A DNA stretch of 34,757 nt from an uncultured Spirochaetales bacterium (GCA_964543975.1 CAZJBZ010000002.1:1-34757); one strand, 5' to 3'. Positions 13,056 through 34,020 are shown, numbered from the stretch's first letter. Notes: a model not told the origin generated them from the letters alone. Program-made: numbers and translations.

Positions 13056-13092
13056 CATCCGTACCGTTTTGAAGATCGTTTTACACCGCGGT

Positions 13093-13266
13093 CAGGGATT
13101 CGAAATGTGATCGTAATTTGCTGTGAAAGGTTATGAAGACCGTCAATTTGTTGACGATTTTCTATGCAGATAGGTCTTTTCTATAGCAGAATCATCAAAT
13201 TGACGGTCTCTTATCAATACAATCGTTCACATTTCGAATCCCCAAAGCTTACTTTTCGAATTGCTG
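13093..13266. mobile_element. 174-bp MITE, copy 1, flanked by the 9-bp direct repeat CACCGCGGT
   Basis: CACCGCGGT occurs at 13084-13092 and again at 13267-13275. The left end is CAGGGATTCGAAATGTGA. The right end, reverse-complemented, is CAGCAATTCGAAAAGTAA (14/18 match). A perfect internal copy of the left TIR (tcacatttcgaatcccc) makes a hairpin of about 150 nt. There is no coding capacity. A second copy lies at 33176-33349. Confidence 0.8.
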
Positions 13267-13280
13267 CACCGCGGTACTGT

Positions 13281-32255: not shown

Positions 32256-32779
32256 ATCCAGTCCCTTCGCGAGGCGGCAGCTGCCCACTGTGATTTCTCA
32301 AGAAACCGGTAGGCGAACAGACCGAGCAGCAGGGAGCTCACCAAACCGATTGCTAAAAGCGGAGGTGCCGTCATCCACACCCCCTTTCCGAAGATAAGAA
32401 ACCGGGCCAAAACAAGCTGGGTACAGTTGCTTGCCAACGCGCCGAAAACACTCACTCCGATGACCGAAATATGTGCTTTGAACAGCCGTCGTGCTCCTAT
32501 CATGGTCAGGGCGGCGGCGTAGGTCCCGCAGCAGGAGAAGAGAAACACATATGAAAAGAGGGTCCCGTTGACCAATCCTTGGCCCAGCACTTTTAAAAGT
32601 GCGAGGAGAAGGACCGAGCGAAAGTCGAGAAAAAAGACGGCAAGAAGAATCGGCAGGTTCGCAATGCCCAGCCGGATGAACGGCAGCGGTTTGGGAACCA
32701 TATACTCTATTGTCGAGAGGAAGAGCGACATCGCCGCCATAACGGCGATGATCTCATATCGTTTAGTAGGTCCCGGCAT
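32252..32779 (-). CDS. Gx transporter family protein (Pfam Hpre_diP_synt_I-type membrane protein)
   Basis: 175-aa ORF. ...LSTIEYMVPKPLPFIRLGIANLPILLAVFFLD... matches the family's hallmark E-x-x-P-x-P-x-P-x-(K/R)-LG-(L/I)-AN block, as I remember it. Confidence 0.65.
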   Translation of the reverse strand: MPGPTKRYEIIAVMAAMSLFLSTIEYMVPKPLPFIRLGIANLPILLAVFFLDFRSVLLLALLKVLGQGLVNGTLFSYVFLFSCCGTYAAALTMIGARRLFKAHISVIGVSVFGALASNCTQLVLARFLIFGKGVWMTAPPLLAIGLVSSLLLGLFAYRFLEKSQWAAAASRRDWI

Positions 32780-33131
32780 CGGTCCCTTCCTCCGTTTCTC
32801 CCGTAATCCGGATAAAAACTCTGTTCGGCAGGCACGCGATCCAGGCCCCCGGTTTGGACACGGCCCCCATGGTTATGCAGTTTTTTCCCCGGCAGGGGGA
32901 TGCCTCTATCCTTACAGTACCATCCTTTATGACCACCTCGGTCGTTCCAAGCGGACCCGGGACAGAGAGGTTTTCTTCGGAATCCAACGGATAGTACCAA
33001 TCGCCGGTGTAAGAGTGTATGTGGATTTGCTTCGCTTCGACAGGTTCCCCGTAAGAAACGACCGCGATTATCACAATGCATGCGACGGAGAGAAGCAGCG
33101 CGGCAATATCGAAGGGGCGTGGCCGATACAT
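32763..33131 (-). CDS. NusG domain II-containing membrane-anchored protein
   Basis: 122-aa ORF with an N-terminal TM anchor. ...VVIKDGTVRIEASPCRGKNCITMGAVSKPGAWIACLPNRVFIRI resembles the NusG_II family block C-x-x-x-x-C ... CLPN. Confidence 0.65.
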   Translation of the reverse strand: MYRPRPFDIAALLLSVACIVIIAVVSYGEPVEAKQIHIHSYTGDWYYPLDSEENLSVPGPLGTTEVVIKDGTVRIEASPCRGKNCITMGAVSKPGAWIACLPNRVFIRITGETEEGTDAGTY

Positions 33132-33175
33132 GGTACCACTATAGTAAAAAAATGTTGTTGTAAAAAGAGTGCGGG

Positions 33176-33349
33176 CAGGGATTCGAAATGTGATCGTAAT
33201 TTGCTGTAAAGGGTTATGAGGGCCGTGAATTTGATGACGATTTTCCCTTCAGAGAGACCTTTTGCAAAGGATAATCATCAAATTTACGGCCTATTATCAC
33301 TACAATCGTTCACATTTCGAATCCCCACAGCTCACATTTGGAATTGCTG
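33176..33349. mobile_element. 174-bp MITE, copy 2, flanked by the 9-bp direct repeat GAGTGCGGG
   Basis: GAGTGCGGG occurs at 33167-33175 and 33350-33358. The copy has the same length and orientation as copy 1, with 149/174 identity by hand alignment and no indels. The first 32 nt and the internal TIR copy are identical to copy 1. The right end, reverse-complemented, is CAGCAATTCCAAATGTGA (15/18 against the left TIR). Confidence 0.8.
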
Positions 33350-33405
33350 GAGTGCGGGCAGGCCTTTCTCCTTTCTAAGCGCCGTCAATTTATCGTCTCT
33401 TTCCC

Positions 33406-34020
33406 TTAACGCTTCCCTTTTCCTATATAGTAAGTTTCAAATGACGGTTTCCTGCTGGCCTTCGGTTTATGGGCTTTGACCGATACAAAAAGGGCTTTCA
33501 TCGAATCGAGAATTTCTTTTTCATCACCCCCTTGAAAAACCTTTATCACCATAGTGCCTCCTGAATGAAGGAGGTTTGCAGCCGCTTCGAGAATACGCGT
33601 AACGAGTGAATAAGAACGGCCGGCATCGACTGTTCTATTTCCTGTTGTAGAGGGTGCGGCGTCACTGAGAATACAATCATACGGTCCCGCCTGCGCCAGC
33701 TGCTTACGGACCGGCCCATCGAAAATGTCGCCTTCGATAAAAAGCGCATTATTAATTCGACCGGCAATTTCCTTACGGATGGGGCCGTCTAAAGGGTTGA
33801 GGTCCACACTCACCACTCCGCCTTGCGTGAGTTTTGAAACGTAGAGCGACCAGCTCCCGGGAGCGGCGCCGATATCCAAGACCCGGTCCTTTTTCCCGAT
33901 GACCGAGTACTTTTGCTGAATTTCCGCCAGCTTATACACCGACCGGGCAGGATAGCCCTCTTTTTTTGCCTTGTGTGTTAGATGATCGCGTGTTCGCTTC
34001 GATCCATGCTTTTTACTCAT
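33406..34020 (-). CDS. rlmE: 23S rRNA (uridine2552-2'-O)-methyltransferase RlmE/FtsJ
   Basis: 204-aa ORF. RSVYKLAEIQQKY, VLDIGAAPGSWS (SAM-binding motif), ILSDAAP, VIKVFQG. Confidence 0.85.
   Translation of the reverse strand: MSKKHGSKRTRDHLTHKAKKEGYPARSVYKLAEIQQKYSVIGKKDRVLDIGAAPGSWSLYVSKLTQGGVVSVDLNPLDGPIRKEIAGRINNALFIEGDIFDGPVRKQLAQAGPYDCILSDAAPSTTGNRTVDAGRSYSLVTRILEAAANLLHSGGTMVIKVFQGGDEKEILDSMKALFVSVKAHKPKASRKPSFETYYIGKGKR

What the first reader, a model, noticed from the sequence alone, without database searches (positions are those of the whole stretch)
33167..33358. Second MITE copy: exactly the same length, conserved arms, diverged apex, and pair-preserving substitutions in the stem
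Copy 2 (33176-33349, TSD GAGTGCGGG) aligns to copy 1 without indels, with 25 mismatches in 174 nt. Eleven of the 25 mismatches fall in the central 27 nt (element positions 71-97), which form the hairpin apex. The first 32 nt and positions 126-152 are identical.

In the 13-bp stem segment (positions 46-58 pairing with 104-116), pairing is maintained:
- An A-T pair in copy 1 (positions 47/115) is G-C in copy 2.
- A C-G pair (52/110) becomes G-T, which pairs only as G.U in RNA.
- A T-T mismatch (59/103) becomes A-T.

With only two copies this is weak evidence. It does hint that the hairpin itself is under selection, either as the DNA substrate for transposition or as an RNA structure.

The copy lies 57 nt after the rlmE stop. 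It directly abuts the apparently leaderless promoter region of the NusG_II operon (TATAGT, 6 nt, ATG at 33131).
Basis: seen in the sequence. Interest (0 to 1): 0.55.

Follow-up and report, generated by a model that had tools for sequence, protein, structure and literature searches.

The report
Hairpin-forming miniature transposon, second copy
This 174-base repeat is one of about 45 copies of a small gene-less jumping element in this genome. The two arms of its hairpin really do change together, but this looks like ordinary upkeep of a DNA palindrome and not a sign of a hidden RNA gene.

Summary
Copy 2 (33176-33349, 9-bp duplication GAGTGCGGG) aligns to copy 1 without gaps, with 25 mismatches, 11 of them in positions 71-97.

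It belongs to a MITE family of about 45 loci in this MAG: 14 long copies, about 10 short 103-nt copies, and fragments. Nearly all have their own 9-bp target duplication.

The termini, CAG(G/C)(G/A)ATTCGAAATGTGA, match those of a 1456-bp insertion sequence with a 9-bp duplication in same-class genomes. Its 439-aa DDE_Tnp_1 transposase has homologues that NCBI names "ISNCY family". This MAG holds only a remnant of such a gene.

With more copies the arms do co-vary. This is strong in the outer stem (left end against an internal inverted copy of the end). It is marginal in the inner 18-bp stem, with about 3 independent double events.

RNA function has no support:
- no Rfam family, terminator or conserved promoter;
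- no orientation bias to neighbouring genes or to GC skew;
- the apex is unstructured;
- the inner hairpin was deleted repeatedly.

One hint remains: the inner stem shows G·T but almost no A·C mismatches.

An earlier agent of this scan had already called copy 1 an ordinary MITE.

The parts
33167..33175 (.). Left 9-bp target-site duplication (GAGTGCGGG)
   Evidence: Identical to 33350-33358. 9-bp duplications flank about 20 other copies.
33176..33349 (+). MITE copy 2, long form, 174 nt
   Evidence: It is 97% identical to the copy on contig C283 and 86% identical to copy 1.
33176..33193 (+). Left terminal inverted repeat. Positions 3-18 also form the 5' arm of the outer stem.
   Evidence: Matches the ends of the 1456-bp IS in L043. 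Pairs with 33310-33325.
33220..33237 (+). 5' arm of the inner 18-bp stem (element positions 45-62)
   Evidence: 98% of alignment cells are paired in 14 long copies.
33238..33274 (+). Diverged apex (element positions 63-99)
   Evidence: Mean pairwise difference is 0.35. It is no more structured than shuffled sequence (mean z -0.14).
33275..33292 (+). 3' arm of the inner stem (element positions 100-117)
   Evidence: This is the most conserved segment (difference 0.07).
33310..33325 (+). Internal inverted copy of the left end; 3' arm of the outer stem (element positions 135-150)
   Evidence: Together with the 5 nt inside it, it matches the subterminal right end of the IS in L041 at 18 of 19 positions.
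33332..33349 (+). Right terminal inverted repeat (element positions 157-174)
   Evidence: Its reverse complement matches the IS terminus in L043 at 17 of 18 positions. The target duplication begins directly after it.
33350..33358 (.). Right 9-bp target-site duplication (GAGTGCGGG)
13093..13266 (+). MITE copy 1, long form, flanked by CACCGCGGT at 13084-13092 and 13267-13275
33406..34020 (-). rlmE/FtsJ-type methyltransferase gene, whose 3' end faces the element
   Evidence: PF01728, E 2.8e-42.
32763..33131 (-). NusG_II-domain gene, first gene of the downstream operon
   Evidence: PF07009, E 4e-20.
33138..33143 (-). Candidate -10 hexamer TATAGT, 6 nt before the ATG. The weak -35 position (33161-33166) abuts the duplication.
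   Evidence: Read from the sequence. The consensus scan did not call it. No TSS data are available.

Best explanation
Copy 2 is an insertion of a non-autonomous DNA transposon (MITE).

**How it moves (inferred).** The element carries the terminal inverted repeats of a roughly 1.46-kb insertion sequence. A 439-aa DDE_Tnp_1 transposase encoded by that IS moves it in trans and makes 9-bp target duplications.

**What the hairpin is (shown).** It is built from DNA repeats. The outer stem is the left end paired with an internal inverted copy of an IS end. That internal copy sits just inside the real right terminus. The inner stem is an 18-bp palindrome around a free-drifting 37-nt apex.

**Why the arms stay complementary (inferred).** This happens at the DNA level in two ways:
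- Selection on mobile source elements keeps the end sequences, which are the transposase sites.
- Arm-to-arm copying during replication (template switching or conversion in quasi-palindromes) transfers a change from one arm to the other. Compensated pairs then arise in one step.

**Instability (shown).** The same palindromy makes the inner hairpin unstable. It has been removed repeatedly by deletion between two TCAAT direct repeats, giving the 103-nt short form.

**Local context (shown).** At this locus the element landed between rlmE and the NusG_II operon, immediately upstream of the native promoter's -35 position. It does not supply promoter hexamers.

Shown here: family membership, duplications, IS-type ends, co-variation, recurrent deletion, and the lack of orientation bias. 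Inferred: the mobilising enzyme, and template switching as the cause of co-variation.
For: **Family and duplications.** About 45 loci carry the element, and nearly every complete copy has its own 9-bp duplication.

**Partner IS.**
- L043:65-1520 has the same 18-nt termini at both ends, a 9-bp duplication (GTTTCATGC) and a DDE_Tnp_1 ORF.
- An intact 439-aa gene lies in L041. It has more than 7800 homologues, and NCBI names some of them 'ISNCY family transposase'.
- The element's termini match the IS ends at 17 of 18 positions.
- G000 holds a remnant of such a gene beside an assembly gap.

**Co-variation.**
- In 14 long copies, 97.4% of cells are paired, 5 pairs have double changes, and 0 of 500 shuffles reach the covariation score.
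- In 26 copies the outer stem has 399 of 416 Watson-Crick cells.
- Excluding the subfamily-marker pair at columns 5/150, 10 cells are changed on both sides. All 10 are complementary, against 0.64 expected (p about 2e-9).

**DNA-level signature.**
- The outer stem shows no strand asymmetry (G.T 4 against A.C 7).
- Copy C192 carries 3-4 concerted arm changes while the rest of the copy is typical of the family.
- Related MITEs in two other genomes show compensated changes in both end hairpins, plus a loop that reads TAAA in one and TTTA in the other. Arm homogenisation and spacer inversion are the marks described for template switching between inverted repeats (PMC8604942; also PMC8794818, PMC7202029).

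**Not an RNA gene.**
- There is no Rfam match and no terminator-like site.
- The promoter-like hits fall in variable, non-conserved segments.
- In tandem gene contexts, 6 copies are sense and 5 antisense to the flanking genes.
- 12 copies have the top strand on the G-rich side and 10 on the C-rich side.
- The apex is unstructured.

**Inner hairpin dispensable in situ.** Short forms are interleaved among the long subfamilies, and monophyly is rejected (AU p about 1e-4).
Against: - Unbiased arm-to-arm copying alone does not explain why stems are 2-4 times less diverged between copies than linkers and apex (0.07-0.15 against 0.18-0.35). Some constraint, or hypermutable loops, must be added.
- For the inner stem no function in transposition is known.
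- Inner-stem single changes are almost all G.T on the top strand. Counting all cells gives 17 against 1 A.C. Dropping pair 45/118 gives 8 against 1. In the 14 long copies alone, without that pair, it is 7 against 0.
- The top-strand RNA fold of the inner hairpin is more stable than the bottom-strand fold in 11 of 14 copies. A strand-symmetric DNA process does not predict either asymmetry.
- No intact partner transposase was found in this MAG.
- No empty site or orthologous copy in a close relative could be obtained here.
- No transcript data could be examined.
Confidence: 0.62

Rival explanations
1. The hairpin is selected as a DNA structure that the transposition reaction needs. For example, a fold-back or cruciform might bring the two ends together or present an extra transposase site. 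Only masters that keep pairing would then produce copies.
For: - Stems are conserved 2-4 times better than loops.
- The internal arm of the outer stem is itself an IS-end-like sequence.
- Unrelated MITEs with the same termini in other genomes also carry an inverted copy of the end next to the end.
- Co-variation is strong.
Against: - DDE_Tnp_1 (IS4-type) enzymes act on double-stranded ends and are not known to need a fold-back of the whole element (established knowledge, not tested here).
- Short and other deletion variants lacking the inner hairpin exist in several sub-lineages, each with its own duplication. Deletion in place after insertion cannot be excluded.
- The 3-4 concerted changes in copy C192 fit one copying event better than stepwise selection.
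Confidence: 0.2
2. The element, or its inner hairpin, works as RNA. It could be a dispersed small RNA or a cis-acting mRNA hairpin affecting stability or processing, as reported for bcr1, Correia, ERIC and RUP elements. Pairing would then be kept by selection on the transcript of the top strand.
For: - The inner stem tolerates G.U-type changes but almost never A.C. Without pair 45/118 the counts are 8 against 1 in all copies and 7 against 0 in the 14 long copies, binomial p about 0.02-0.04.
- The top-strand RNA fold of the inner hairpin is more stable in 11 of 14 copies.
- The fold is very stable (z about -7.5).
- Transcribed MITE-like repeats with compensatory changes are documented (Delihas 2011, PMC3184786, on bcr1).
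Against: - No Rfam family matches.
- There is no conserved promoter or terminator in the element.
- Orientation relative to flanking genes is random, and about half of the copies sit between divergent genes where no read-through occurs.
- In both window copies, read-through from the flanking genes would yield the bottom strand, where the wobble pairs become C.A mismatches.
- The inner hairpin was lost repeatedly.
- The asymmetry rests on fewer than 10 events and was found post hoc.
Confidence: 0.12
3. There is no constraint at all. The two copies are simply recent, and the pair-preserving changes are chance.
For: With only the two window copies there is just one true double change (47/115).
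Against: - With 14-26 copies, pairing holds in 96-98% of cells despite 15-35% divergence elsewhere.
- 10 of 10 doubly changed outer-stem cells are complementary, against 0.64 expected.
Confidence: 0.02

Closest known systems
Prokaryotic MITEs derived from DDE insertion sequences (e.g. Nezha of Anabaena/Nostoc with ISNpu3; MITEAba12; MaeMITEs of Microcystis)
   Same: - Small and gene-less, with terminal inverted repeats matching those of an intact IS found in other genomes.
- Flanking direct repeats, many dispersed intergenic copies, and a very stable predicted fold. This is the description of Nezha in PMC3184786.
- The partner IS is absent or broken in the host genome.
   Different: - The sequence family is confined to this MAG among about 440 genomes searched.
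- The right end carries two tandem end-like motifs, one internal and one terminal.
- The partner is a 439-aa DDE_Tnp_1 transposase with no NCBIfam model hit.
bcr1 repeats of the Bacillus cereus group (MITE-like, transcribed, compensatory changes; Klevan 2007 and Kristoffersen 2011 as summarised in PMC3184786)
   Same: - About 155-174 nt, with target duplications and a non-conserved genomic distribution.
- Compensatory base changes keep a long stem.
- Structure was lost in some copies.
   Different: bcr1 is shown to be transcribed and makes 5-bp duplications. Here transcription is untested, the duplication is 9 bp, and context gives no sign of a transcript.
Quasi-palindrome template-switch mutagenesis (PMC8794818, PMC7202029, PMC8604942)
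   Same: Arm homogenisation, several neighbouring positions changed in concert (C192), and a possible loop inversion in a related MITE.
   Different: This is a mutational process, not an element family. It is only inferred here from patterns, and it does not by itself explain the lower divergence of stems.
ISAs1-family elements (recalled from ISfinder: CAGGG ends, 8-10-bp duplications)
   Same: Ends begin CAGG(G/A), and the duplication is 9 bp.
   Different: The partner transposase does not hit the ISAs1 model NF033564, and the genome has no ISAs1 gene. This is a resemblance in end sequence only.

Membership tests
MITE (non-autonomous DDE transposon) | Terminal inverted repeats | tested here: met
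   The left end and the reverse complement of the right end agree at 15 of 18 positions in copy 2. Both match the IS ends.
MITE (non-autonomous DDE transposon) | Target-site duplication of fixed length at each copy | tested here: met
   9-bp duplications, different at each locus, flank about 20 copies.
MITE (non-autonomous DDE transposon) | Short, without a transposase gene, and multi-copy at unrelated loci | tested here: met
   Copies are 103-174 nt at about 45 loci on different contigs, nearly all intergenic.
MITE (non-autonomous DDE transposon) | Ends shared with an autonomous IS | tested here: met
   A 1456-bp IS with the same ends and a 9-bp duplication lies in L043. An intact transposase gene lies in L041. 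These are in other genomes of the class. G000 has only a remnant.
MITE (non-autonomous DDE transposon) | Empty site in a relative, or polymorphic insertion | tested here: inconclusive
   The nearest available relatives share only about 57% RlmE identity and lack synteny. An earlier agent reported empty sites (e1-4654594); this was not re-verified.
ISAs1-derived element | Partner transposase matches the ISAs1 model (NF033564) | tested here: not met
   The 439-aa protein has no NCBIfam hit. The genome-wide search gave only 21.7 bits against a cut-off of 70.
IS4-like / 'ISNCY' DDE_Tnp_1 element | DDE_Tnp_1 (PF01609) catalytic domain | tested here: inconclusive
   The L043 ORF scores 29.2 bits (cut-off 23). 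The intact L041 protein scores 21.2 bits, just below the cut-off. Some homologues are named ISNCY by NCBI.
Structured non-coding RNA gene | Match to a curated RNA family | tested here: not met
   Nothing at gathering threshold. The only other hit is a sub-threshold snoRNA match that is chance.
Structured non-coding RNA gene | Statistically supported covariation | tested here: met
   The result is equally expected for a DNA palindrome, and the inner stem has only about 3 independent events.
Structured non-coding RNA gene | Own promoter or terminator, or a fixed orientation to transcription | tested here: not met
Structured non-coding RNA gene | Discrete transcript | not testable with these tools
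REP/REPIN-type single-strand elements | No target duplication, and strand-locked orientation | tested here: not met
   The element has 9-bp duplications and no GC-skew orientation bias (12 to 10).
Intrinsic terminator | GC-rich stem directly followed by a T run | tested here: not met
   No site was found on either strand. On the rlmE strand the T run starts about 11 nt after the stem.

The most novel reading that the evidence does not exclude
The conserved inner 18-bp hairpin is kept on one strand only: G.U is tolerated and A.C is avoided. Long copies of this MITE would then act as dispersed structured RNAs or strand-specific single-strand DNA signals that the host or the element uses, a spirochaete-class counterpart of bcr1.
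Probability: 0.1. Interest if true: 0.45.

Novelty: new member of a known kind. Interest (0 to 1): 0.25.

Why it matters
This mainly matters for annotation and as a caution.

- **Assembly.** The repeat explains several contig breaks in this MAG.
- **Partner IS.** It marks an uncharacterised but very large insertion-sequence group: 439-aa transposase, 9-bp duplication, CAG(G/C)AATTCGAAATGTGA ends. This group has spawned many different MITEs in the bacterial class.
- **Caution.** Compensatory changes in a mobile palindrome are not evidence for an RNA gene by themselves.
- **If the hint holds.** If the strand asymmetry of the inner stem held up, the family would be a useful case of a MITE-borne structured RNA.

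Tried and rejected
- **Element outside this genome.**
  - BLAST in 40 relatives gave nothing.
  - An exact 21-mer in genome contigs gave one chance hit inside a coding region of a Methylococcaceae MAG.
  - The same 21-mer gave none in metagenome contigs, and there was no match in plasmids.
- **Empty site or orthologous copy.**
  - There is no exact NusG_II protein elsewhere.
  - Same-family genomes share 57% RlmE identity and have a different downstream gene.
  - The metagenome search gave at most 58% identity, and only one locus had both genes, in convergent orientation.
- **ISAs1 parentage.** Rejected.
- **Structured apex.** Rejected: it is no better than shuffled sequence.
- **Small second hairpin (positions 19-44).** It appears in single-sequence folds but is not conserved across subfamilies.
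- **Promoter inside the element.** The two promoter-like hits lie in the variable apex and linker. An outward -35 at the left end does not line up with a -10 in copy 2.
- **Internal similarity to the IS beyond the ends.** None was found.
- **Replication-strand lock.** Rejected.
- **R-scape.** It is not installed. Pair counting with shuffles, slid controls and a Poisson expectation were used instead.

Full report
**1. Check of the observation**

The window holds two 174-nt copies of one repeat, at 13093-13266 and 33176-33349. A script reproduced every figure in the finding:
- There are 25 mismatches without gaps. Eleven lie in positions 71-97, none in 1-32 and none in 126-152.
- The flanking 9-bp duplications are CACCGCGGT and GAGTGCGGG.
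- The three quoted pair states are as described.

Each copy folds into a three-part structure:
- an outer 16-bp stem, positions 3-18 with 135-150;
- an inner 18-bp stem, positions 45-62 with 100-117, around a 37-nt apex;
- an unpaired 24-nt 3' tail.

The fold energy is about 7.5 standard deviations below shuffled sequence.

An FtsJ/RlmE gene (33406-34020, minus strand) ends 56-57 nt from the element. A NusG_II-domain gene starts at 33131 on the minus strand, followed by a heptaprenyl-diphosphate-synthase-I-like gene.

**2. What it is**

The window's genome is a 4.4-Mb MAG of 506 contigs, 91% complete. BLAST and nhmmer find about 45 loci:
- 14 long copies;
- about 10 short copies of 103 nt;
- about 20 truncated or rearranged copies, several at contig ends.

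Nearly every complete copy has its own 9-bp direct repeat. The copies are almost all intergenic. This is a MITE family.

It was not found elsewhere:
- not by BLAST in 40 relatives;
- not in the genome and metagenome collections by an exact 21-mer, apart from one chance hit;
- not in plasmids.

*The ends are shared more widely.* The 20-nt left end, allowing two mismatches, occurs in several copies in 11 other genomes of the same class. The reversed control pattern gave a single hit in those 400 genomes. Two kinds of element carry it.

- **Full-length insertion sequences.**
  - L043:65-1520 is 1456 bp. It has CAGCAATTCGAAATGTGA at both ends, the 9-bp duplication GTTTCATGC and a frameshifted DDE_Tnp_1 gene.
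  - L041 has an intact 439-aa gene next to the same end.
  - The protein has more than 7800 homologues of the same length. Most are unnamed; a few are named 'ISNCY family transposase' by NCBI, one of them from a Spirochaetales MAG.
  - It hits no NCBIfam model, including ISAs1.
- **Other MITEs.** These are 50, 68, 141 and about 155 nt long, with the same ends and 9-bp duplications but unrelated interiors.

The right terminus of copy 2 matches the IS end at 17 of 18 positions. Similarity to the IS does not extend beyond the ends.

The MAG itself has only a 120-residue remnant of such a transposase (53% identity), next to a run of N on contig C44.

*Anatomy.* The 3' arm of the outer stem is an inverted copy of an IS end. 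With the 5 nt inside it, it matches the subterminal right end of the L041 IS at 18 of 19 positions. It lies directly inside the real right terminus, so the right side carries two tandem end-like motifs. Related MITEs also carry an inverted copy of the end beside the end.

**3. Do the arms co-vary?**

Yes.

*Fourteen long copies (alignment A2).*
- The consensus fold keeps both stems.
- 97.4% of the 462 cells are standard pairs, and five pairs show changes on both sides.
- None of 500 shuffles reaches the covariation score. Sliding the partner by 1-3 columns drops pairing to 29-54%.

*Outer stem, 26 copies (short and variant copies added).*
- 399 of 416 cells are Watson-Crick.
- Leaving out the subfamily-marker pair (columns 5/150), 10 cells are changed on both sides.
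- All 10 are complementary, against 0.64 expected (Poisson p about 2e-9).
- These come from about 8 independent events.

*Inner stem.* The evidence here is thinner. There are three independent double events: columns 52/111 twice and 47/116 once. About 0.74 are expected, so p is about 0.04 at the level of events.

- 47/115 is one true double change shared with the C283 twin.
- 52/110 is a double change followed by a wobble transition.
- 59/103 is a private disruptive mutation in copy 1.

*Divergence is uneven.*
- The four stem arms differ by 0.07-0.15 between copies.
- The second linker and the tail differ by 0.18.
- The first linker and the apex differ by 0.32-0.35.

The apex is no more self-complementary than shuffled sequence (mean z -0.14).

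**4. What keeps the pairing?**

Co-variation in a mobile palindrome has three possible sources:
- selection on an RNA;
- selection on a DNA structure or on protein-binding ends;
- a mutational process that copies one arm onto the other.

The third is well documented. Template switching in quasi-palindromes homogenises arms, inverts spacers and creates 'compensatory' pairs in one step (PMC8794818, PMC7202029, PMC8604942).

Three patterns here fit a DNA-level, strand-symmetric process.
- **Unpaired cells in the outer stem.** They show no strand preference (G.T 4, A.C 7).
- **Copy C192.** It has 3-4 complementary changes clustered in positions 3-12 and their partners, while the rest of the copy is typical of the family.
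- **Related MITE in two other genomes.** Two copies of the 141-nt MITE differ by compensated changes in both end hairpins. They also differ by a loop reading TAAA in one and TTTA in the other, which are reverse complements.

*Evidence against an RNA role.*
- **Families and signals.** There is no Rfam family, even at permissive thresholds. There is no terminator-like site. The only two promoter-like matches fall in variable segments.
- **Gene context.** About 12 copies lie between divergent genes, 5 are antisense and 6 sense within tandem genes, and 2-3 lie between convergent genes. Orientation to transcription is therefore random.
- **Replication strand.** Orientation to local GC skew is also random, 12 to 10. 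This also argues against a strand-locked single-strand DNA element.

*The inner hairpin is not retained everywhere.*
- The short form equals positions 1-55 joined to 122-174 at a TCAAT direct repeat.
- Short copies have their closest relatives among different long subfamilies.
- A tree with all short copies held together is rejected (log-likelihood lower by 48, AU p about 1e-4).
- So the palindrome was deleted several times, in place or in different source elements.
- Other deletions between or within repeats occur in the copies on C200, C169 and C4.

*Two observations do not fit a purely mutational, strand-symmetric account.*
- **Conserved stem sequence.** Unbiased arm copying does not lower divergence between copies, yet the stems are 2-4 times more conserved than the loops. 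For the ends, selection on transposase sites in source elements suffices. For the inner stem I have no tested explanation. A binding site or hypermutable single-stranded loops are guesses.
- **Strand asymmetry in the inner stem.**
  - Single changes there are G.T on the top strand in 17 cells against one A.C.
  - Dropping the pair that is G.T in most copies gives 8 against 1, or 7 against 0 in the 14 long copies.
  - The top-strand RNA fold of the inner hairpin is the more stable one in 11 of 14 copies.
  - This is what an RNA or single-strand constraint on the top strand would give. It rests on fewer than ten events and was seen after splitting the data by helix.
  - In both window copies, read-through from the flanking genes would produce the other strand.
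  - I treat it as an unexplained hint.

**5. The promoter question**

On the minus strand the order is: rlmE stop, 47 nt, duplication, element (reverse orientation), duplication, then TTTTTACAACAACATTTTTTTAC, TATAGT, GGTACC, ATG.
- A -35 hexamer 17 nt upstream of TATAGT would read TTTTTA and starts right after the duplication. TTTACA lies at a 15-nt spacing.
- The element therefore sits just upstream of the -35 position and supplies neither hexamer.
- The consensus scan did not call this promoter, because it reaches only 8 of 12 matches.
- No Shine-Dalgarno-like sequence precedes the ATG, so a leaderless transcript is plausible. It remains untested.
- The element's hairpin is not followed by a T run on the rlmE strand, so it is not a canonical terminator.

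**6. Comparison with known systems, and novelty**

This is a new sequence family of an ordinary kind: a prokaryotic MITE whose ends match an IS found in other genomes, as for Nezha and ISNpu3 (PMC3184786).

MITE-like repeats with compensatory stem changes are known. bcr1 of the Bacillus cereus group is transcribed and also lost structure in some copies (PMC3184786).

The CAGGG-type ends and the 9-bp duplication recall ISAs1. That is my recollection of ISfinder, and the transposase test for ISAs1 failed. Beyond NCBI's label 'ISNCY' for some homologues and a borderline DDE_Tnp_1 match, the partner IS is unclassified.

An earlier agent of this scan reached the same ordinary-MITE verdict for copy 1 but could not name the enzyme (e1-4654594). 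Another earlier report proposed self-correcting palindromes for a different ISNCY-linked MITE (e1-1432027).

**7. Verdict**

Co-variation is real, but selection on an RNA is not indicated.
- I put about 0.6 on a DNA-level explanation that combines transposase-site constraint with arm-to-arm copying.
- I put about 0.2 on the hairpin being structurally required for transposition, and about 0.1 on an RNA role.
- Interest is low to moderate.

Noticed in passing
L043:65-1520 (G015) and L041:109-1428 (G288): A 1456-bp insertion sequence has CAGCAATTCGAAATGTGA ends and a 9-bp duplication. It encodes a 439-aa DDE_Tnp_1-like transposase. That protein has more than 7800 same-length homologues, mostly unnamed, and hits no NCBIfam model. 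This looks like a large, poorly classified IS group.
   Followed up: partly
L037:1380-1520, L050:1501-1641, L049, L040, L034/L046/L053: Other genomes of the class hold MITEs of 50, 68, 141 and about 155 nt. They share the same ends and 9-bp duplications but have unrelated interiors. Several have an inverted copy of the end right beside the end. Between L037 and L050 both end hairpins carry compensated changes, and one loop reads TAAA against TTTA.
   Followed up: partly
G000 contig C44:12800-14000 (L096): This region is a cluster of IS debris. It holds a 120-residue remnant of the partner-type transposase beside a run of N, next to an IS30-like helix-turn-helix ORF.
   Followed up: partly
G000 contigs C409:3307-3524 and C18:3357-3529: These variant copies have a different palindromic segment in the interior, beginning GGAGGCACTTGCAAA. 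It may be a second small element nested in the MITE.
   Followed up: no
G000 contig C166:2385-2599: Two identical short-form copies lie in tandem and share the duplication TTGACACAG between them. This looks like a tandem duplication, not two separate insertions.
   Followed up: no
G000, all copies: Copies are enriched between divergent genes (about 12 of 25) and rare between convergent genes (2-3). Several lie within 11-25 nt of the longest-ORF start codon of a neighbour. Some neighbouring genes may therefore depend on transcription starting in or passing through the element. The start codons were not verified.
   Followed up: no
window 33138-33145: The candidate -10 region ACTATAGT is its own reverse complement, so it reads TATAGT on both strands.
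   Followed up: no
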